From positions 1-64,000 of the forward strand of contig JBFGLM010000019.1 of the NCBI GenBank assembly GCA_041576165.1: a stretch of DNA of 64,000 bases. The letters run 5' to 3'. Positions 18,981 through 27,048 of this stretch are shown here, one piece after another (positions within the stretch are counted from its first letter, which is position 1; the number at the start of each line of letters is the position of its first letter). The notes under the pieces are model-generated. The model was given only the letters and a program-made list of their open reading frames with translations, did no database searches and was not told where the DNA came from. The stretch comes from Acidimicrobiia bacterium (lineage in GTDB: Bacteria; Actinomycetota; Acidimicrobiia; Spongiisociales; Spongiisociaceae). The translations under genes and the position numbers were made by a program.

Positions 18981-20938
18981 CCTCGCGAGCACCGCTCAGC
19001 ATGGTTGCCGCTTCGGGGGGGCCGGCCCATGGGGTGAGCCGGCGCCAACTTGATTCGTCGGAGATCACCCTCTGGCGCCGCCGGTTCGACTCGATACCCG
19101 TTGCGATGTACGAAGAGGACTACTCGAAAGCGGCCGAGTCATTGGAAGCTCTCAGGCGAGAGGGTGTCACCGACCTCACGTCGTACCTCACTGAGCGACC
19201 AGACGAGCTCGAACGGCTCATCTCGCTGATCGTCGTCGAGGCGGCCAACGCGCAGGCCATCCGGTTGGTGGGGGCAGAACGCGAGGAACAATTGGTCGGC
19301 AGTCTGCCGCCGGAGATGTTCAAGGACCGAACCCGGCACTCCTTCATCGCCCAATTCCAGGCGATCTGGGACGGCAAGGATCATGTCGCAATCGAGCTGC
19401 ATGGCCAGCCTTTCGGCGGCGAGTCCATCGACTGCGTCATGAACTGGGCGGCTCCCGTGCTCGATACCGGGCCCGACTACGCACACGTCCAGGTGGGTTT
19501 CCTGGACGTCACGGCCCGGGTACGGGCCGAGCGCATTGCAATCGAAACCGCGGCGAAGCTGTCCCAGTTGTACGAGATCGGCACGTCGCTCACAGCTTCG
19601 CTCGACGTCGAGGAGATCCTTGCCATGACCCTCGACGGAGCAGTCCGGCTGGTCGACGCCGACAAAGTGGCGCTGTTCATGTTCGATCACGATTCTCGTC
19701 AGATCACACAGAGGATGGCGCGCGGCATTGACTCGGACGAGCTCGCGCAGCATACGTACGACGAACTGGAAGCCGGTATCACCGGCAGCGTCTGGCGGGA
19801 CGGTGTCGGCACCATCTCGGAAGACATCGCCAGCGACATGCGCAACACGGGCTTGGCCTACGAGCGGGCACTCAGCCACGGCCGATGGTCGGTGATCGTG
19901 GCGCCGCTCATCGCCAACGACCAGGTCTTCGGGACCTTGACGGCGGTGCGGGAAGCCGGTTCTGAAACGCCGCTGGGTGACAACGAGCACCTGTATGTGG
20001 AAATGCTCGCCTCACAGGCATCAATCGCCATCGAGAACGCCCAGCTGTATTCGGGCCTCCGTGACACGATGAGCGAGCTGCAGCGTACCCAAGCAAGTCT
20101 GCTCTCGGCCCAAAAACTGGAAGCCGTTGGTCAGCTGGCTGCGGGGGTTGCGCATGAGATCAACACTCCGGTGCAGTTCGTGTCGGACAACCTGAGGTTC
20201 ATGAAGGACGCCTTCTCGGATGTGATCTCGGCGCTGCAAAGCGCCGCCCAGATCACCGAAGCCGTGAAATCCGGTACCAACGTGGACGCTGCGATTGCCA
20301 CCCACGAGTCAGCGCTCGAGGACGCCGATTTCGATTTCCTCGTGGCCGAGCTACCGGACGCGATCGAGCAGTCGCTCGACGGCGTAGAACGGGTAGCAGT
20401 GATCGTGCGAGCGTTGAAGGAGTTCTCACATCCGGGCGGCGAGCAACTCTCGCCGGTCGATATCAACCGGGCTCTCGAGAACACGCTTGCCGTGGCGCGC
20501 AACGAGTGGAAATACGTCGCCGAGGCCGTCACCAACCTCGATCCCGCCGTGGGCTGCATCCCCGCCCTGTCCGGGCCGCTCAACCAGGTGATCCTCAACC
20601 TGCTGGTCAATGCCGCCCACGCCATCGGTGATGTGGTTGGTGATTCGGGTGACCTGGGCACGATAACGGTGACGACTCGACAGGACTGCAACTACGCCGA
20701 GATCCGCATCCAGGATACGGGCGGCGGCATACCCGAACACATACGTGACCGGATCTACGACCCCTTCTTCACCACCAAGGACGTGGGCAGGGGCACCGGA
20801 CAGGGGCTGGCTATTGCGCACGACATCATCACGGTCAAACACGGCGGCGAGCTGACATTTGAGGTCGAGGAAGGGGTGGGCACGACCTTCATAATTCGTC
20901 TTCCAGTCGAACCACCGGATGGCGAGGCGTGCGAATGA
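18977..20938 (+). CDS. PAS/GAF sensor histidine kinase (NtrB-like)
   Basis: GAF (APLIANDQVFG..LASQASIAIENA), H-box AHEINTP, NLLVNA, DTGGGI, PFFTTK, GTGQGL. Confidence 0.92.
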   Translation: MTSRAPLSMVAASGGPAHGVSRRQLDSSEITLWRRRFDSIPVAMYEEDYSKAAESLEALRREGVTDLTSYLTERPDELERLISLIVVEAANAQAIRLVGAEREEQLVGSLPPEMFKDRTRHSFIAQFQAIWDGKDHVAIELHGQPFGGESIDCVMNWAAPVLDTGPDYAHVQVGFLDVTARVRAERIAIETAAKLSQLYEIGTSLTASLDVEEILAMTLDGAVRLVDADKVALFMFDHDSRQITQRMARGIDSDELAQHTYDELEAGITGSVWRDGVGTISEDIASDMRNTGLAYERALSHGRWSVIVAPLIANDQVFGTLTAVREAGSETPLGDNEHLYVEMLASQASIAIENAQLYSGLRDTMSELQRTQASLLSAQKLEAVGQLAAGVAHEINTPVQFVSDNLRFMKDAFSDVISALQSAAQITEAVKSGTNVDAAIATHESALEDADFDFLVAELPDAIEQSLDGVERVAVIVRALKEFSHPGGEQLSPVDINRALENTLAVARNEWKYVAEAVTNLDPAVGCIPALSGPLNQVILNLLVNAAHAIGDVVGDSGDLGTITVTTRQDCNYAEIRIQDTGGGIPEHIRDRIYDPFFTTKDVGRGTGQGLAIAHDIITVKHGGELTFEVEEGVGTTFIIRLPVEPPDGEACE

Positions 20939-22071
20939 CCACCAAGATCCTGCTGGTCGACGATGAGAAGAACGTCCTGGATGGTTTTCGACGCAACCTC
21001 CGAAGGTACAAGCTGACAACGGCGCTCGGACCGCGGGAAGGCCTCGAGGAGATCGAGAAGAACGGCCCATTCGCGGTGGTGGTGTCCGACCTGCAAATGC
21101 CGCACATGAACGGCATCGAGTTTCTCTCCAAGATCGAAGCGGTGGCACCGAAGACGATCCGGATCATGCTCACGGGCCAGGCTGACGTGAACGTCTCCAT
21201 CGCCGCGGTCAACGAAGGCCATGTCTTTCGCTTTTTGACCAAACCGTGCCCGCCGGAGCTGCTGGCGGCGACCCTGAACGATGCGCTGGAGCAGTACCGG
21301 CTGATCGAAGCCGAACGAGAGTTGCTGGAGGAAACACTCCACGGCGCGGTGCAGGTGCTCACCGACGTACTTGCCCTGGTGGACGAGGGAAGTCAAACGT
21401 TTGCAGCTCAGGTGCAAGCGACCGTGACCAAGATGTGCAACGCGGTGGGACTGGAGGGATGGCAATACGAGCTGGCCGCAATGCTCTCGCAACTCGGCAA
21501 CCTCACGTTGCCCGGCGAGACAACCGCCAAGCTCAATCGCGGCGCGCCGTTGACCGACCACGAGAAGGCTATGGCCGATCAGGCGCCTCAGGTCGCCTTC
21601 CGCCTGCTGGAACGCATTCCCCGGCTGGATGTAGTCGCGGCCATCGTGCGCGGTCAGGCCGAGCCTCCCCCATTCATCCCCGGTGACCCGACCGACATCG
21701 TGGCCGCGGGCGCCAACCTTCTGCATTTCGCAGTCCGCTACCACCGGCTCGTCGCGTCGGACCGGCCGGATTCCGAGGTCAGAACGGTGCTGGAGAACGC
21801 CGCCGACGACGAATTTCGCGCTGCGTTGGTGGCCGCCCTGTTCACCACCGACGAAGCTGCGTGGGAGGAGGCGATCCTGCCCGTCCGCTCGCTGGACGTA
21901 GGTATGGTTCTCGGCCAGGCGGTTCGGGCAAACAACGGCGTGTTGCTGCTCTCAGAAGGGCAGGCCCTCAACGCAGCGTTGCTAGAGCGTTTACGGGTGT
22001 TCGCCGGCGGCGTCGGCGTGGAAGAACCACTCCGGGTCCGATACCAGACGAACCGAAGCGTCGCCGCCTGA
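20935..22071 (+). CDS. Response regulator with degenerate HD-like output domain
   Basis: REC (LVDDE, SDLQMP, TKP); AAMLSQLG where HD-GYP proteins have LHDIG. Confidence 0.82.
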   Translation: MTTKILLVDDEKNVLDGFRRNLRRYKLTTALGPREGLEEIEKNGPFAVVVSDLQMPHMNGIEFLSKIEAVAPKTIRIMLTGQADVNVSIAAVNEGHVFRFLTKPCPPELLAATLNDALEQYRLIEAERELLEETLHGAVQVLTDVLALVDEGSQTFAAQVQATVTKMCNAVGLEGWQYELAAMLSQLGNLTLPGETTAKLNRGAPLTDHEKAMADQAPQVAFRLLERIPRLDVVAAIVRGQAEPPPFIPGDPTDIVAAGANLLHFAVRYHRLVASDRPDSEVRTVLENAADDEFRAALVAALFTTDEAAWEEAILPVRSLDVGMVLGQAVRANNGVLLLSEGQALNAALLERLRVFAGGVGVEEPLRVRYQTNRSVAA

Positions 22072-22112: not shown

Positions 22113-22433
22113 TCATCCGCCCGGCGGGCGATATTCGACTACCACCTCGGCGATCTCGTCGACTTCCTCCGGCGTGATCAGCACCGTTGTTGACGGGGCC
22201 ACCGAACCGGACGCGGCCACGGTCATCGCCACAGCAGCCGCGGTCGTGTTGTCGGGCATGGAACCGATCACGATGACGTCGTCGTCGCCGAATGCGTAGT
22301 AGAAAGCGTCGAGGCTGCCGCCCAGGCTCTCGAACAGCTTCTCGATCGTGGCGCGTCGGGAAGTGCCCCCTTCCTTGAGAGTCCCCTTCAATCCATCGCC
22401 GGTCAGCTTGGCCCGAATCAGATACTTGGGCAT
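22113..22433 (-). CDS. GYD domain-containing protein
   Basis: MPKYL...GG.SRR..ESLGG.L..FYYAFGDDDV pattern. Confidence 0.85.
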   Translation of the reverse strand: MPKYLIRAKLTGDGLKGTLKEGGTSRRATIEKLFESLGGSLDAFYYAFGDDDVIVIGSMPDNTTAAAVAMTVAASGSVAPSTTVLITPEEVDEIAEVVVEYRPPGG

Positions 22434-22503: not shown

Positions 22504-23529
22504 TCAAGGCGACCTCGGGGTGGCCAGTGTGCCTGCCTGACGGTCTGTTATGTGCCCCGCTCGGTGGAGCCAGACGACGGTGTCGAGCATCGTCGTGTCC
22601 AGCGGTGTGAATTCGATCCCGAGATCGTGCACCGCGGCTGAGGACTCGGCGACGTCGCCGTTGGCCAGCAACCAGGGAGCCTCGAACGAGATTGCCGGCT
22701 CTATGCCGAACCGGTTGCGCGCCCAATCGGCCAGACGTCCCGTCCCTATCGCCACCCCGTGCGGCACCGGGATGGACCATAGGTTGCGCCCGGCCAGCTC
22801 GCCGACGCGGGCGATGGCGGCACGGAAGTCGATGTTGTGGCCCACAACCACATAACGGCGGGGCCCGCCACCGGGCTCGAGAACAGCGACGAGGGCGGCG
22901 GCGACGTCCCGGACGTCGCTGATCGGGAGGTTGCCGCCGTTGAGCACCCGCATCTTGCCCTGCAGCGCGTTCTTGACCAGCTGCGCACTCTCGCCGAGGT
23001 ACGGGTCGTCGGGGCCCCAGACGGACCCTGGATAGATGATGACCACCGGGTGGCCATCTGCCTGGAGCCGCCGGGCGATCAGGTCCGCCACAGCTTTGGA
23101 GTTGCTATAGGCCGGTTCGGGGGTCCCGACCTCGGAGTCGGGAGTGATCGGGCCGTCGGACGGCAGCAGGGCAACGAAACTCGACACGTGCACGATCGGG
23201 TCCAGTCCGGCCTGGACCGCCTCGCCGAGCACGAGTTCGGTGCCGTGTTGGTTGACGTGGTTCATGGTCTCGACCCGTCCAGGATCGAACGTGAAGACGT
23301 TGGCCGCATGGATAACCGCCTCACAGCCCGTCAACGCCTTCGTCACGGCGTTACGGTCGGTGACATCCCCGACCTGGACCTCAGAGGGATTGACGCCATG
23401 GGGGCTGAGCGCGGGCTCCACCCGGTCCTCGGAACGGACGAGGAGCCGCACCGAGTGACCCTGCTTGATGAGCGCCGCCACGGTGTGGGAGCCGACAAAG
23501 CCGGTACCGCCGGTTATCAATACCTTCAT
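22504..23529 (-). CDS. NAD-dependent epimerase/dehydratase (dihydroflavonol reductase-like)
   Basis: TGGTGFVG, HVSS, YSNSK. Confidence 0.88.
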   Translation of the reverse strand: MKVLITGGTGFVGSHTVAALIKQGHSVRLLVRSEDRVEPALSPHGVNPSEVQVGDVTDRNAVTKALTGCEAVIHAANVFTFDPGRVETMNHVNQHGTELVLGEAVQAGLDPIVHVSSFVALLPSDGPITPDSEVGTPEPAYSNSKAVADLIARRLQADGHPVVIIYPGSVWGPDDPYLGESAQLVKNALQGKMRVLNGGNLPISDVRDVAAALVAVLEPGGGPRRYVVVGHNIDFRAAIARVGELAGRNLWSIPVPHGVAIGTGRLADWARNRFGIEPAISFEAPWLLANGDVAESSAAVHDLGIEFTPLDTTMLDTVVWLHRAGHITDRQAGTLATPRSP

Positions 23530-23593: not shown

Positions 23594-24133
23594 CTATGAG
23601 GCCGAGCCGGACTCGGGTCCGGGCTGAAGCGTCCGCATGAACACTTGCATCCCGTAGTGAATGGCAATCAGGCCGCCCAGCTCCATGATCTGGGCCTCGG
23701 TGAAATGCTTCTTGCCCTCGTCGTAGAAGGCTGCGTCTACCTTTTTGGGATCCCGGTACATGAGGTGGGCGTAGCGCAGAGCCCATTTCTCGGCATCGGT
23801 GAAGTGAGGATCATCCTCGAAGTCCTCGCGTCCTGCCTCGATTTGCTCTTCAGTCAGCCCGGCGGTGATCGCCGGTTGGGAACGGAGTGCCGAGAAATAG
23901 GGGTCTCGTGCAGTCCGGGCCAGCTGAATCCGGATGATCTCCTTCAACCGGTGATCGACGCCGCCTTCGAACAACGCCTCCGCCATGGCCCCGGTTATGG
24001 CTTCGGCATACCCGGGCACGTGCGCCAAGATCTTGGCAAACCTCCCGTCAGCGTCTCCCAGGCGTTCCATGAATTCAAAAGCCGGACCTAATCGCTCGGT
24101 TTCGTGCTCGTCGAGGACCTTCGGACTGGGCAT
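23594..24133 (-). CDS. AhpD/carboxymuconolactone decarboxylase family protein (no CxxC)
   Basis: VDHRLKEIIRIQLAR, FTDAEKWAL.YA, FTEAQIMELG; Cys-free at the usual CxxC site (RDPYF). Confidence 0.85.
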   Translation of the reverse strand: MPSPKVLDEHETERLGPAFEFMERLGDADGRFAKILAHVPGYAEAITGAMAEALFEGGVDHRLKEIIRIQLARTARDPYFSALRSQPAITAGLTEEQIEAGREDFEDDPHFTDAEKWALRYAHLMYRDPKKVDAAFYDEGKKHFTEAQIMELGGLIAIHYGMQVFMRTLQPGPESGSAS

Positions 24134-24141
24134 GTCTTCTC

Positions 24142-24798
24142 CTAAGTCGGTGCGTCCGCCTCGGACTCAGCCAGCGCCTTCAGCACCGCTTCGCTGCGGT
24201 GCGAGCCGGGTGTGTCGCCATAGATCCGTTGCGATTCCTCTTGGCTCACCAGGCGCCCGTCGGGGGAGAACATCGGGTAGAAGTCGAGTGTCCGAAAGAA
24301 CGTGTGGTAACCGACGTTGAAGCCGATGAAGGTCCCAAGCTCCACGATCTCAGCCTCGCTGTAGTACTGACCGAGCCTGGCGTAGAAGACCGGATCGATC
24401 TTCTCCGGGGCAAACTGCATAAGCTCGCTGTATTCGAGGGCGATCTTCTCGGCTGGCGAGAACTCGGAGCTGTTGCGCCAATTGTCGATCCCCTCGTCGA
24501 TCCGCTCTTCGGTCAGTCCGTTCCGCTTCGCCGAAGCGGATCGCACGTTGCCTCAGTAGTTGCAGCTGGCGGCTCGGGAGAGTTGAACCCGGATGATCTC
24601 TTTGAGGTTGTGATCGATCGCGCCGGTGTTGAACACCGTACCCCACGCGACATAGAGCGCCTTGGACAGTGCCGGATTGTGACCCTGGATGGCGTGGAAG
24701 GCCGGGTCAGGGGCCCGGTGCTTCAGGCACTTCTTGACGAACCCGGCAAGTTCGGACTCCATGAGTTCGTCGATGTCGAGCAAGGTGATATTTGACAC
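24142..24798 (-). CDS. AhpD/CMD family selenoprotein (Sec82 at in-frame TGA 24553-24555)
   Basis: GGAGGAG RBS and GTG at 24798; frame continues IDHNLKEIIRVQLSRAASCNY-TGA-GNVRSASAKRNGLTEE...FSPAEKIALEY...YSEAEIVELG, colinear with the adjacent CMD paralogue; hairpin just 3' of the TGA. Confidence 0.82.
24522..24540 (-). promoter_or_regulatory. Candidate bacterial SECIS hairpin
   Basis: mRNA about 12 nt after the UGA reads UCCGCUUC-GGC-GAAGCGGA (8-bp stem, G-containing loop). Confidence 0.6.
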
Positions 24799-24854
24799 TG
24801 GTCTCCTCCGGGTCTTCCGAGACTCTATCTCACAGCGGTTCGAGTGGAATCGGG

Positions 24855-25304
24855 CTAGGCCTTCCAGCCGGACCCTCCGAACAGGCGAACCGCGTAATAG
24901 GCCAGTGTTCGGCGCCAGGCGGGTACACCTTCCTGTTCCATGATCCGGCGGAAGAGCTGGTCGGCCTCTTTGCGGGTATAGGTCCGGGGTGGCTCGGCTG
25001 CGCCCGGCGGTGGACGCCCTCCATAGGCGTAGAGCCAATCGTGCATCAGGGGTGCGGTCACCGATAACTCGAACGGCGAGATGAGCCACCAGAAGGCGCG
25101 CGGCACCGAAGCCAAGTCGAACTCGAACCCGGCGGCGACGGTCAGACGAGTCGGCCCGTCCACATACAGGTAGTCCTCTTCGAGTCTCCAGACCTCGCGT
25201 TCCGGCAAGTAGGTGAGGACCGGCGCCGGCAGTCGCGATGCGGTGATGTCGACCGGTTCGTGCTGAAGTCGGTACGCGGATTCGTCCACCGCCTCCCTCC
25301 CCAT
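24855..25304 (-). CDS. DUF1353 domain-containing protein
   Basis: AGFEFDLASVPR, MHDWLY, RKEADQLF, YYAVRLFG. Confidence 0.88.
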   Translation of the reverse strand: MGREAVDESAYRLQHEPVDITASRLPAPVLTYLPEREVWRLEEDYLYVDGPTRLTVAAGFEFDLASVPRAFWWLISPFELSVTAPLMHDWLYAYGGRPPPGAAEPPRTYTRKEADQLFRRIMEQEGVPAWRRTLAYYAVRLFGGSGWKA

Positions 25305-25401: not shown

Positions 25402-27048
25402 TCATCGGACTTCGCAGTCCGTCACCGGCAGGCCAACCTCGAGCGCGTACGAGCGGATGGCCTCGCGGCGGCTCGATTGGATCTGGATCGCGTCGCATGT
25501 CGCCTCCAAAGCCGCTTCCGGCAACGAAACCGAGGAGTACAGCGACGCGGCCGCCAGCAGCATGGCGGCGCCGTCGAGTGGACCAACCGCATGGCCGAAC
25601 TCAGTCAAGCTGTCGGCCGCGCCTACCCGCCCGCGCCGTTCCTCGACCGGCGTGTAGAAGGTGAAGAAGCTGTCGACTTGCTGCTTGGTCCAGCCGGAGA
25701 CATCGGGTTGGGCTCCAAGCAGTGCCACGTATACCGGCGCATCCTGTGGCACCAGATTCGGGTCGGCCGCGATGTGCAAACTGAGGGGTGGGCGCAGGTC
25801 TCGTCCTGTGTAGCGGGGCCAGCCGGCGAACGGTGTTCGATATAGGCCGAACGGGCGTACCGAGTCGTACAGGACCACCGCACCATCCGCCGTCTCGGTG
25901 TCGAGGACGGCGGAGACCGCCCGCCAGTCGGGAAACTCCTTGGTGGAGAGCTGAGTCCAGAGCCCGCCCAGAGACCACAACGCCAGACCAGCGACAACCG
26001 CTAGGCCTGTTCCCGCCAACCACCAGCGGGACCGCCCCTCCACTGCGACATGGGTGATGGCTCCGGCCAGCGCCGCCAGCGGTGGCCACCAGGAGAAGAC
26101 GTAACGGTCGAAGTACGGCTGGCTCTCGGGGGTGCGTAGAAAGAAGAGCAGCGCGAAGCCGATCGGCACTGCCACCAGCGGCCAGAACCACCAGAGCCCG
26201 GCGACACGAGTTCGCACCGACGGCCATGCGCCGGCAGTCAACGCGACTACCAGTCCGAAGATGCCAATCTCCTGAGAGAGGACCTCTGGCAATTCGGAAC
26301 CAAAACGGGAAAGGCCACCCCAGGACACGCTGGCGTCCACCGTGTACTCGGCCAGCTCTGACGACAGGCGCACAAACACGGGTATCTCGACCAGCACCAA
26401 CCCGGCAACCGCGGCGGCAACGGGGAGTTTCCACCGTGTTTGGGTGACCTCATGGTTCTGGATGCGCAAAACCGCGAGCCAGGCGGCAGTGGCGGCCAGC
26501 ACTATCGGGGGCTCGACGGTCCGGGACAGCGGGAGCAGGAGAGCGGCCACGACGGCAATCGCTCCGCCGAGCTTGGATCCTTCCCGGAGCCATCGGTCGG
26601 ACTCCTCCAAGAACAGCAACGTGAGAAAGAGGGGGAGCGCGTACGGGCGCGCATACGCGGTCACTGCAACCAGGCCGGGAGCGATGGCCATCAACGCAAT
26701 CGCCACCGGCGCCCCGATCCCCAGCCTCGACCCGTTGAGGAGCAAACCCAGAACTATCAATGACCCGATTCCCCATAGCGCCGGCAGCAATCGTTGGTGG
26801 ATGTCGCCGACACCGATCACCCGTTGGAAGGTCGCGTTGAGGAGCGGATCGAGGGGCGGCTGCTCTTGCGCAAAACTCGCATCGACGATCTCACCAAACG
26901 ACCAGCTGTAGGACCGAACCTGGCGCAGCTCGTCGATGTTGTATGGCTCCTCCAGGACCGCAATGATGAGCACCAGCGCGCCCACCACCACGCCGAGGAC
27001 CGAAGCGATCAGAACTGCGCGGGACGAGGACTGTGTCACCCGGACCAT
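25402..27048 (-). CDS. GT-C fold membrane glycosyltransferase (ArnT/PMT-like)
   Basis: Acidic DE in the first loop (YNIDELRQ), QPPL, YARPYAL, roughly 11-13 TM segments and a soluble C-terminal region. Confidence 0.75.
   Translation of the reverse strand: MVRVTQSSSRAVLIASVLGVVVGALVLIIAVLEEPYNIDELRQVRSYSWSFGEIVDASFAQEQPPLDPLLNATFQRVIGVGDIHQRLLPALWGIGSLIVLGLLLNGSRLGIGAPVAIALMAIAPGLVAVTAYARPYALPLFLTLLFLEESDRWLREGSKLGGAIAVVAALLLPLSRTVEPPIVLAATAAWLAVLRIQNHEVTQTRWKLPVAAAVAGLVLVEIPVFVRLSSELAEYTVDASVSWGGLSRFGSELPEVLSQEIGIFGLVVALTAGAWPSVRTRVAGLWWFWPLVAVPIGFALLFFLRTPESQPYFDRYVFSWWPPLAALAGAITHVAVEGRSRWWLAGTGLAVVAGLALWSLGGLWTQLSTKEFPDWRAVSAVLDTETADGAVVLYDSVRPFGLYRTPFAGWPRYTGRDLRPPLSLHIAADPNLVPQDAPVYVALLGAQPDVSGWTKQQVDSFFTFYTPVEERRGRVGAADSLTEFGHAVGPLDGAAMLLAAASLYSSVSLPEAALEATCDAIQIQSSRREAIRSYALEVGLPVTDCEVR

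What the first reader, a model, noticed from the sequence alone, without database searches (positions are those of the whole stretch)
23594..24798. Hidden selenoprotein: CxxU AhpD/CMD gene paired with a Cys-free paralogue
Seen: two ORFs split by the ORF caller (one ending SCNY at 24553, one starting at 24546) are one reading frame, TGC AAC TAC TGA GGC AAC GTG CGA. The UGA sits where the second Cys of the AhpD CxxC motif belongs, and an 8-bp hairpin (UCCGCUUC-GGC-GAAGCGGA) starts about 12 nt downstream. The read-through protein (218 aa) is colinear with the next gene, a CMD paralogue 8 nt downstream that lacks the CxxC entirely. Established: AhpD-like proteins are a recognised bacterial selenoprotein family, and bacterial SECIS elements lie just 3' of the UGA. 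Inference: a two-subunit Sec-dependent redox enzyme (one catalytic Sec subunit, one non-catalytic partner) that automated annotation would miss, in a phylum where Sec use is patchy.
Basis: partly seen in the sequence, partly recalled or inferred. Interest (0 to 1): 0.85.

Follow-up and report, generated by a model that had tools for sequence, protein, structure and literature searches.

The report
Sec-containing AhpD-like gene with degenerate partner
The in-frame TGA is a genuine selenocysteine codon in an AhpD/CMD-type redox protein that always travels with a non-catalytic paralogue; this selenoprotein family is already known, but this sub-family is mis-annotated as fragments in public databases.

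Summary
On the minus strand, gene A (24798..24142, 218 aa) carries an in-frame TGA (24555..24553) in a C-N-Y-U motif. Twelve nt downstream lies an 8-bp hairpin with a GGC loop. Gene B (24133..23594, 179 aa, no Cys) starts 8 nt after A's stop.

- **Sec machinery:** the genome holds selA, selB, selD and tRNA-Sec.
- **Codon conservation:** the TGA column aligns with the second Cys of CxxC in Cys homologues. All 80 related loci examined, from several phyla, keep TGA at codon 82.
- **SECIS:** the hairpin is kept, with a C:G/U:A covariation and frozen synonymous sites. Other AhpD-like Sec sub-families have different stems with the same geometry. Cys homologues lack it.
- **Partner gene:** B follows A in 79 of 80 loci; the exception ends at a contig edge. 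A and B are fused into one ORF in one locus and in 9 database clusters, which argues for a heteromer.

AhpD-like CxxU selenoproteins have been known since 2005, so this is a new, apparently Sec-only sub-family of a known kind. Its substrate is unknown. Sec use is common, not patchy, among this organism's relatives (selA in 57 of 61).

The parts
24142..24798 (-). Gene A: 218-aa AhpD/CMD-family selenoprotein (GTG start 24798..24796, TAG stop 24144..24142). It carries E67-x11-C79-N-Y-U82-x3-R86.
   Evidence: Read-through translation. Pfam CMD PF02627 36.7 bits against cut-off 23. Orthologues of 65-84% identity in 80 loci.
24553..24555 (-). UGA codon 82, read as selenocysteine.
   Evidence: Aligns with the second Cys of CxxC in Cys homologues. 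TGA in 80 of 80 related loci. No variant listed in the contigs laid.
24522..24540 (-). SECIS hairpin: 8-bp stem UCCGCUUC/GAAGCGGA with GGC loop, starting 12 nt after the UGA.
   Evidence: Conserved with C:G<->U:A covariation at pair 18-32 and invariant synonymous sites. Absent from 11 Cys homologues.
24803..24809 (-). Shine-Dalgarno-like GGAGGAG, 4 nt upstream of A's GTG start.
   Evidence: Read directly from the sequence.
23594..24133 (-). Gene B: 179-aa CMD-family paralogue without Cys. D77-P-Y79-F80 stands in place of C-x-x-U. ATG is 8 nt after A's stop, and AGGAG overlaps that stop.
   Evidence: Pfam CMD 27.4 bits against cut-off 23. Directly downstream of A in 79 of 80 loci. D77, Y79, R84 and W117 invariant in 54 of 54.

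Best explanation
Gene A encodes a selenocysteine-containing thiol/selenol oxidoreductase of the AhpD/CMD fold. During translation, SelB-GTP carrying Sec-tRNA(Sec) binds the GGC-loop hairpin 12 nt downstream of UGA-82. Sec is inserted, and the ribosome completes a 218-aa protein whose redox centre is C79-N-Y-U82. E67 sits 11 residues upstream, as in AhpD, and an invariant R86 stands where AhpD has His.

Sec82 is the likely attacking nucleophile and Cys79 the resolving residue, forming a selenenylsulfide. An external thiol system then re-reduces it.

Gene B is translationally coupled to A. It is a degenerate paralogue (C->D, U->F) that most likely pairs with A as a non-catalytic subunit of a hetero-oligomer. 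This would be a split form of the two-domain arrangement seen in fused relatives.

Shown: the Sec codon, the SECIS, the Sec machinery, the conservation, the synteny and the fusions. Inferred: heteromer formation, the roles of the residues and the redox chemistry. The substrate is unknown.
For: - Sec machinery in the genome: selB and selA over their cut-offs (two copies each), selD (itself with an in-frame TGA), and two tRNA-Sec genes.
- The UGA column aligns with Cys in 11 CxxC homologues and with U in 12 TGA-bearing ones.
- All 12 TGA-bearing homologues have a hairpin of at least 6 bp starting 12-14 nt after the UGA. Nine have a GGC loop. Stem sequences differ between sub-families. None of the 11 Cys homologues has this element: 6 have no hairpin and 5 have weak ones at other offsets.
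- 80 of 80 related loci have TGA at codon 82.
- 73 of the 78 loci tested have a mismatch-free GGC hairpin.
- Pair 18-32 is U:A in 49, C:G in 17 and U:G in 2 of 68 distinct rows, with none unpaired. The third codon positions inside the stem are invariant, while flanking ones vary.
- 24 of 80 loci use TGA as the real terminator of the same gene, so TGA is not reassigned.
- B lies directly downstream on the same strand in 79 of 80 loci. The exception has only 264 nt of contig left.
- Heuristic B starts lie mostly within a few nt of A's stop or overlap it.
- A and B are fused in one ORF in L103 (426 aa) and in 9 of the 16 database proteins that I read.
- B keeps its own invariant residues, so it is under selection.
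Against: - No direct evidence of Se incorporation, expression or A-B binding.
- The AhpD His at +4 of the second Cys is Arg here, so the proton-relay chemistry may differ from AhpD. The motif is recalled, not tested against a reference.
- A scores far below the cut-offs of every specific NCBIfam AhpD-like model, so function cannot be transferred from any characterised equivalog.
- Flanking genes differ between lineages and give no consistent pathway.
- Only 80 of the 138 relatives found were examined.
Confidence: 0.82

Rival explanations
1. A is a genuine selenoprotein, but B is an independent paralogue. It would be its own homo-oligomer with a separate, non-redox role such as a decarboxylase-like or binding function. 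It would merely be co-transcribed with A and would not be a subunit of a heterocomplex.
For: - CMD-family proteins are commonly homo-oligomers (recalled).
- B has its own invariant residues D77, Y79, R84 and W117, which could form a different active site.
Against: - Adjacency in 79 of 80 loci across several phyla, while the flanks vary.
- Overlapping or near-abutting stop and start.
- Natural A-linker-B fusions.
- In the 61 relatives, B-type hits occur only next to A.
Confidence: 0.2
2. The TGA is a true stop. The locus then encodes two separate products: an 81-aa N-terminal peptide and a 134-aa protein restarted at GTG 24546. Alternatively it is a pseudogene or an assembly error.
For: Table-11 ORF callers give exactly these two ORFs. 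Databases hold many 119-151-aa C-terminal fragments.
Against: - The same in-frame TGA is in 80 of 80 loci with both halves conserved in one frame.
- The TGA aligns with the catalytic Cys.
- There is a conserved SECIS.
- The Sec machinery is complete.
- Contigs from two studies agree on the codon.
- No Shine-Dalgarno sequence is visible before the internal GTG.
Confidence: 0.02
3. The UGA is decoded as an amino acid other than Sec, for example Trp through a reassigned code, or near-cognate read-through.
For: Seven database proteins that I read show W at this position.
Against: - One of them (P0004) is 97% identical to the product of locus L098, whose DNA has TGA there. The W is therefore best explained by gene calling under a TGA=Trp table (inference).
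- 24 of 80 loci end the same gene with TGA.
- tRNA-Sec, selA, selB and selD are present.
- A SelB-type hairpin is conserved.
Confidence: 0.02

Closest known systems
AhpD-like (COG2128/YciW-type, TIGR01926-like) CxxU selenoproteins of marine metagenomes (Zhang & Gladyshev 2005, PMC1088965; Zhang & Gladyshev 2008, PMC2398784)
   Same: CMD/AhpD fold, CxxU motif with Sec as the second residue, SECIS with G in the apical loop, and occurrence in marine and environmental bacteria.
   Different: - Below the TIGR01926 cut-off (28.9 against 81.8 bits).
- The papers' tables report many Cys homologues (902 for AhpD-like 1), whereas none was seen in this sub-family.
- The passages I read do not mention a conserved degenerate partner gene.
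- Whether their 'AhpD-like 1' set already contains this sub-family could not be checked, because supplements are closed.
NF053654 'YciW-related (seleno)protein' (NCBIfam)
   Same: Best NCBIfam hit for both A (65.5 bits) and B (38.5 bits), and a family that allows Sec.
   Different: Far below the equivalog cut-off of 310 bits, so not a member.
NF041238 'alkylhydroperoxidase-related (seleno)protein' (two-domain, 357 positions), and the split CxxC plus CxxC-less pair in relative G039 (L119)
   Same: A catalytic CMD domain combined with a degenerate CMD domain, either fused or as adjacent genes.
   Different: Neither A nor B matches NF041238 at E <= 0.1. In L119 the catalytic protein matches the C-terminal half of that model, so the domain order is the reverse of A-then-B.
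Mycobacterium tuberculosis AhpD (alkylhydroperoxidase D)
   Same: Same Pfam family. Glu 11 residues upstream of the CxxC-type centre. The second position of the motif is the reactive nucleophile (recalled).
   Different: The His at +4 is Arg86 here, invariant in 58 of 58. Sec replaces Cys. A degenerate partner is present. An AhpC/TSA gene lies nearby in only 3 of 80 loci.
Bmp8 tetrabromopyrrole debrominase (PDB 6ohi/6ohj)
   Same: Closest solved structure to the B profile (E 2e-10). It is an AhpD-like CxxC protein that carries out thiol-mediated reductive dehalogenation (PMC5577590, passage read).
   Different: Only distant similarity. Bmp8 uses Cys, stands alone and sits in a bmp biosynthetic cluster. 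No halogenase context was seen here.
TIGR04030/TIGR04029 (Avi_7169 alkylhydroperoxidase-domain / Avi_7170 CMD-domain proteins)
   Same: A named pair of AhpD-like and CMD-domain models. That they are neighbours is recalled, not tested.
   Different: A scores 18.7 against 233 bits (TIGR04030) and 15 against 100.75 bits (TIGR04029). B has no hit to either.

Membership tests
Bacterial selenoprotein gene | In-frame UGA at a position occupied by Cys in homologues. | tested here: met
   the U column aligns with the second Cys of CxxC in 11 Cys homologues.
Bacterial selenoprotein gene | SECIS stem-loop immediately 3' of the UGA with G in the apical loop. | tested here: met
   An 8-bp stem with GGC loop, 12 nt after the UGA. 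Conserved in 73 of 78 loci without a mismatch. Covariation at pair 18-32. bSECISearch itself was not available. Rfam holds no match.
Bacterial selenoprotein gene | Genome encodes selA, selB, selD and tRNA-Sec. | tested here: met
Bacterial selenoprotein gene | Selenium physically present in the protein. | not testable with these tools
   Needs 75Se labelling or mass spectrometry.
AhpD/CMD family (Pfam PF02627) | Profile match over the gathering score. | tested here: met
   A scores 36.7 bits and B 27.4 bits against a cut-off of 23.
AhpD-type redox centre (E-x11-C-x-x-C-x3-H; motif recalled) | Glu 11 residues upstream, two redox residues, and His at +4. | tested here: inconclusive
   In A, E67, C79 and U82 are present and invariant, but position +4 is R86 in 58 of 58. 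B has E65 but D77/F80 in place of the redox pair.
NF053654 YciW-related (seleno)protein | Score over the equivalog cut-off (310 bits). | tested here: not met
   A 65.5 bits, B 38.5 bits.
TIGR01926 peroxidase-related enzyme | Score over the cut-off (81.8 bits). | tested here: not met
   A 28.9 bits. B has no hit at E <= 0.1.
TIGR04030/TIGR04029 pair | Scores over the cut-offs (233.15 and 100.75 bits). | tested here: not met
   A scores 18.7 and 15 bits. B has no hit.
Heteromeric A-B enzyme (proposed) | Physical association of A and B. | not testable with these tools
Only indirect support: synteny in 79 of 80 loci and fusions.

The most novel reading that the evidence does not exclude
The A-B cassette is an obligately Sec-dependent, heterodimeric AhpD-fold enzyme. 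It appears to have no Cys-form orthologues and has spread horizontally as a two-gene unit through Acidimicrobiia, Nitrospinota, Alphaproteobacteria, SAR324, Chloroflexota and others. The absence of Cys forms would mean the chemistry needs selenium, for example a reductive dehalogenation or deselenation/desulfuration like that of deiodinases and Bmp8, rather than generic peroxide reduction. B would supply the substrate-binding half of a composite active site.
Probability: 0.12. Interest if true: 0.6.

Novelty: new member of a known kind. Interest (0 to 1): 0.35.

Why it matters
- **Annotation:** the gene is split or truncated in public records. Recognising it adds a selenoprotein to the selenoproteome of Acidimicrobiia-like and many marine or sediment bacteria.
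- **Family description:** this well-delimited sub-family has three features that I did not find described in the passages I read. TGA is present in every member examined. A degenerate paralogue is strictly linked to it. Fused forms occur.
- **Experimental use:** these features make it a clean system for asking why some enzymes keep Sec with no Cys alternative, and what the non-catalytic CMD partner does.
- **Limits:** it does not change what is known about Sec decoding, and the family as a class has been known since 2005.

Tried and rejected
- **Single-sequence fold:** the fold of the 81-nt region is not significant (z -1.25), and the MFE prefers a longer alternative helix. I relied on comparative evidence instead.
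- **Rfam:** no family matched 24300-24800 at E <= 1.
- **Promoter and terminator scan:** nothing above the shuffle expectation, so the operon boundaries remain unknown.
- **Neighbourhood as a functional clue:**
  - The window's neighbours are an SDR/epimerase, a DUF1353 protein, a 548-aa membrane protein and a GYD protein. None of the four was found within the roughly 1.5-kb flanks held for three orthologous loci.
  - Across the 80 loci the neighbours are lineage-specific. They include class-III aminotransferase plus FAA hydrolase, HMGL-like plus cupin plus MFS, aromatic amino-acid lyase, AhpC/TSA (3 loci), APH and an alpha/beta hydrolase.
  - No pathway could be assigned.
- **Sequencing runs:** no RNA holder was listed, so nothing can be said on expression. 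All runs laid were contigs, not raw reads.
- **Literature:**
  - A search for 'carboxymuconolactone decarboxylase' + selenocysteine + heterodimer found 0 papers.
  - 'Bmp8' + debrominase found 0.
  - 'tetrabromopyrrole' + 'Bmp8' found 3 reviews, and I read one passage.
  - That the A-B pairing is undescribed rests only on these searches and on the passages read.

Full report
**What is in the sequence**

Both genes lie on the minus strand. Reading 24798..24142 with TGA as U gives a single 218-aa frame. It starts at GTG, with GGAGGAG 4 nt upstream, and ends at TAG 24144..24142. The only in-frame stop is TGA at 24555..24553, residue 82, in ...SRAAS-C-N-Y-U-G-N-V-R-S....

Twelve nt after the UGA lies UCCGCUUC-GGC-GAAGCGGA (24540..24522). 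Gene B (24133..23594, 179 aa) starts 8 nt after A's stop, and an AGGAG overlaps that stop. B has no cysteine and carries D-P-Y-F where A has C-N-Y-U. The two proteins are 40% identical over 145 residues without a gap. Both match Pfam CMD (PF02627) above the gathering score.

**Is the UGA a Sec codon?**

The genome (5.1 Mb, 161 contigs, 96.5% complete, 7.5% contamination) contains:
- selB and selA over their curated cut-offs, two copies each;
- selD, which itself has one in-frame TGA;
- two tRNA-Sec genes.

I searched 61 related genomes with the read-through protein and read stops through. This gave orthologues of 79-81% identity in G059 and G049, both with one TGA. It also gave many more distant AhpD-like genes, some with TGA and some without. 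In the alignment, the window's U falls in the column of the second Cys of CxxC. That column holds Cys in 11 homologues and TGA in 12, the window included.

**The hairpin**

- Each of the 12 TGA-bearing genes has a mismatch-free hairpin of 6-8 bp starting 12-14 nt after the UGA.
- Nine have a GGC triloop and three have a CGUGA/CGUGC loop.
- Stem sequences differ between sub-families (UCCGCUUC, UCCGUCCA, CCGUCUC, CACCGC), so the structure is kept rather than the sequence.
- Of the 11 Cys homologues, 6 have no hairpin in the search range. Five have weak 5-7-bp ones at offsets 10-18 with other loops.
- Of 4 B-type genes, one has a 6-bp hairpin at offset 18.

**Wider family**

A scan of one genome per species with an alignment of three A proteins found 138 relatives, of which the best 80 were kept (L039-L118, 65-84% identity). 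Their record titles name Acidimicrobiia/Acidimicrobiales, Nitrospinota/Nitrospinaceae, Rhodospirillales and other Alphaproteobacteria, Chloroflexota/Anaerolineales, SAR324, Candidatus Tectomicrobia and one Gammaproteobacteria bin. The other 58 were not examined.

- All 80 carry TGA at codon 82: 78 by pattern, two more read by eye, and all 80 again by codon walk.
- 73 of the 78 loci tested have the GGC hairpin without a mismatch; the other 5 have one internal mismatch.
- On an ungapped alignment of 83 sequences (68 distinct rows), 95.6% of pair cells are standard pairs. With slid partners the figure is 30-64%.
- Pair 18-32 is U:A in 49 rows, C:G in 17 and U:G in 2, and is never unpaired.
- The synonymous third positions of the codons inside the stem (GCU, UCG, GCG, AAG) are invariant in all 83, while third positions in the spacer vary freely. 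This indicates constraint at the RNA level.
- 24 of the 80 loci terminate the same gene with TGA. TGA is therefore still a stop in these organisms and is recoded only at codon 82.

**Assembly check**

Logan contigs of runs X1, X2 (one study, possibly the source sample) and X5 (another study, a diverged relative) cover the codon. They list no other letter at 24553-24555. These are contigs, not raw reads.

**The partner gene**

- A B homologue of 46-71% identity lies directly downstream on the same strand in 79 of 80 loci. The one exception (L057) has only 264 nt of contig left.
- With heuristic start picking, B's start is mostly within a few nt of A's stop. A 9-nt spacer occurs in 20 of 77 loci, and an ATGA-type 4-nt overlap in 8 of 77 (the printed figure is the gap plus 1).
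- The flanking genes are not conserved, so A-B is a self-contained two-gene cassette.
- In the 61 relatives, B-type hits occur only beside A.
- The two other TGA-bearing AhpD-like genes of this genome (C48, C18) have no paralogue within 1.5 kb.
- B is under selection of its own. D77, Y79, R84, E65 and W117 are invariant in 54 of 54, and F80 is present in 50 of 54.
- 'Cys-free' does not hold for the whole B family. 19 of 54 B proteins have no Cys, while 33 of 54 have a Cys at window-B position 102.

**Fusions**

In locus L103 (a SAR324 bin), A and B are one 426-aa ORF with TGA at codon 82 and a linker of roughly 50 residues.

The 5.8-billion-protein collection returned 321 hits, of which 120 were listed. 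I read 16 of them:
- Nine are ORFs of 307-371 aa that consist of A's post-UGA part, a linker and a B domain. These are the same fusion, truncated by the gene caller at the UGA.
- Seven are full-length or nearly so, with W at position 82.

One of the seven (P0004) is 97% identical to the product of L098, whose DNA has TGA at that codon. The W is therefore best explained by gene calling under a TGA=Trp table. No form with Cys at position 82 was seen among the proteins read. By length and coverage, the remaining listed hits are mostly 119-151-aa C-terminal fragments. Where named, they are called 'hypothetical protein', 'alkylhydroperoxidase family enzyme' or 'carboxymuconolactone decarboxylase family protein'.

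**Mechanism**

Shown:
- UGA-82 with a SelB-type hairpin in a Sec-competent genome.
- A redox-type C-x-x-U centre with an invariant Glu 11 residues upstream and an invariant Arg at +4.

Inferred from what is known of AhpD-type CxxC proteins (recalled):
- Sec82 attacks the oxidised substrate.
- Cys79 resolves the adduct to a selenenylsulfide.
- A thiol system regenerates the enzyme.

B most likely pairs with A as a non-catalytic half. The support is synteny, translational coupling and the fusions. There is also the precedent of catalytic-plus-degenerate CMD-domain combinations elsewhere. In relative G039, an adjacent CxxC protein and a CxxC-less paralogue match the C- and N-terminal halves of the two-domain model NF041238.

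The substrate is unknown. The closest solved structure to the B profile is the debrominase Bmp8 (E 2e-10). Bmp8 is an AhpD-like protein that removes bromine by oxidising its cysteines (PMC5577590, passage read). That is a lead, not evidence.

**Comparison with what is known**

AhpD-like (COG2128) CxxU proteins were reported as a new selenoprotein family in the Sargasso Sea data, with 27 sequences (PMC1088965, passages read). They rank among the most abundant families in the GOS data: AhpD-like 1 has 299 selenoproteins and 902 Cys homologues, and AhpD-like 2 has 70 (PMC2398784, Table 2 text read). Recent reviews list several AhpD-related selenoprotein models (PMC13188914 and PMC9312934, passages read).

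The window's proteins fall far below the cut-offs of all specific NCBIfam models: NF053654 65.5 against 310 bits, TIGR01926 28.9 against 81.8, and TIGR04030 18.7 against 233. This explains why annotation pipelines do not mark them as selenoproteins.

The claim that Sec use is patchy does not apply at this level, because selA is over its cut-off in 57 of 61 relatives. That tally includes the unpublished genomes G032 and G043.

**Verdict**

The two-subunit idea is plausible and indirectly supported. As for novelty, this is a new, apparently Sec-only, partner-linked sub-family of a well-known selenoprotein family.

Not done:
- raw-read inspection (only contigs were served);
- any expression evidence (no RNA run listed);

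Noticed in passing
G000 contigs C24:55512-58621 and C100:605-3619; C1:33378-33466 and C145:1292-1384: The assembly holds two selA-selB operons and two tRNA-Sec genes. With an estimated 7.5% contamination, the bin may mix two strains, or the Sec machinery may be duplicated.
   Followed up: no
G000:C1:171385-172317 (locus L011): selD matches its family with one in-frame TGA, so SelD itself appears to be a selenoprotein here.
   Followed up: no
G000:C48:24157-24660 (L035) and G000:C18:12016-12516 (L037): Two further AhpD-like genes carry in-frame TGA (CDYU, and CAYU with a second TGA). Each has a hairpin 12-13 nt after the UGA and no paralogue partner within 1.5 kb.
   Followed up: partly
L119 (G039:C29:8300-11200), minus strand 1391-2032 and 831-1391: Another adjacent pair: a CxxC AhpD-like protein (CLYC) and a CxxC-less paralogue (SYYA). 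They match the C-terminal and N-terminal halves of the two-domain model NF041238.
   Followed up: partly
window 24518-24565: A 48-nt Logan unitig covering the TGA and the start of the SECIS has about three times the depth of the flanking contigs in runs X1 and X2. This is as expected if the ultra-conserved stretch is shared by several strains or species in the sample.
   Followed up: no
L039-L118 (A-B cassette in other organisms): The cassette is 65-84% identical across bins labelled as different phyla, while its flanks differ. This suggests horizontal spread of the two-gene unit. No tree was built.
   Followed up: no
window 24855-25304, 25402-27048, 22504-23529, 22113-22433, 20929-22071: The neighbours are a DUF1353 protein, a 548-aa protein without a Pfam match, an NAD-dependent epimerase/dehydratase (SDR), a GYD-domain protein and a response regulator with an HD domain. 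The first four were not found beside A-B in the three orthologous loci compared; the response regulator was not included in that comparison.
   Followed up: partly
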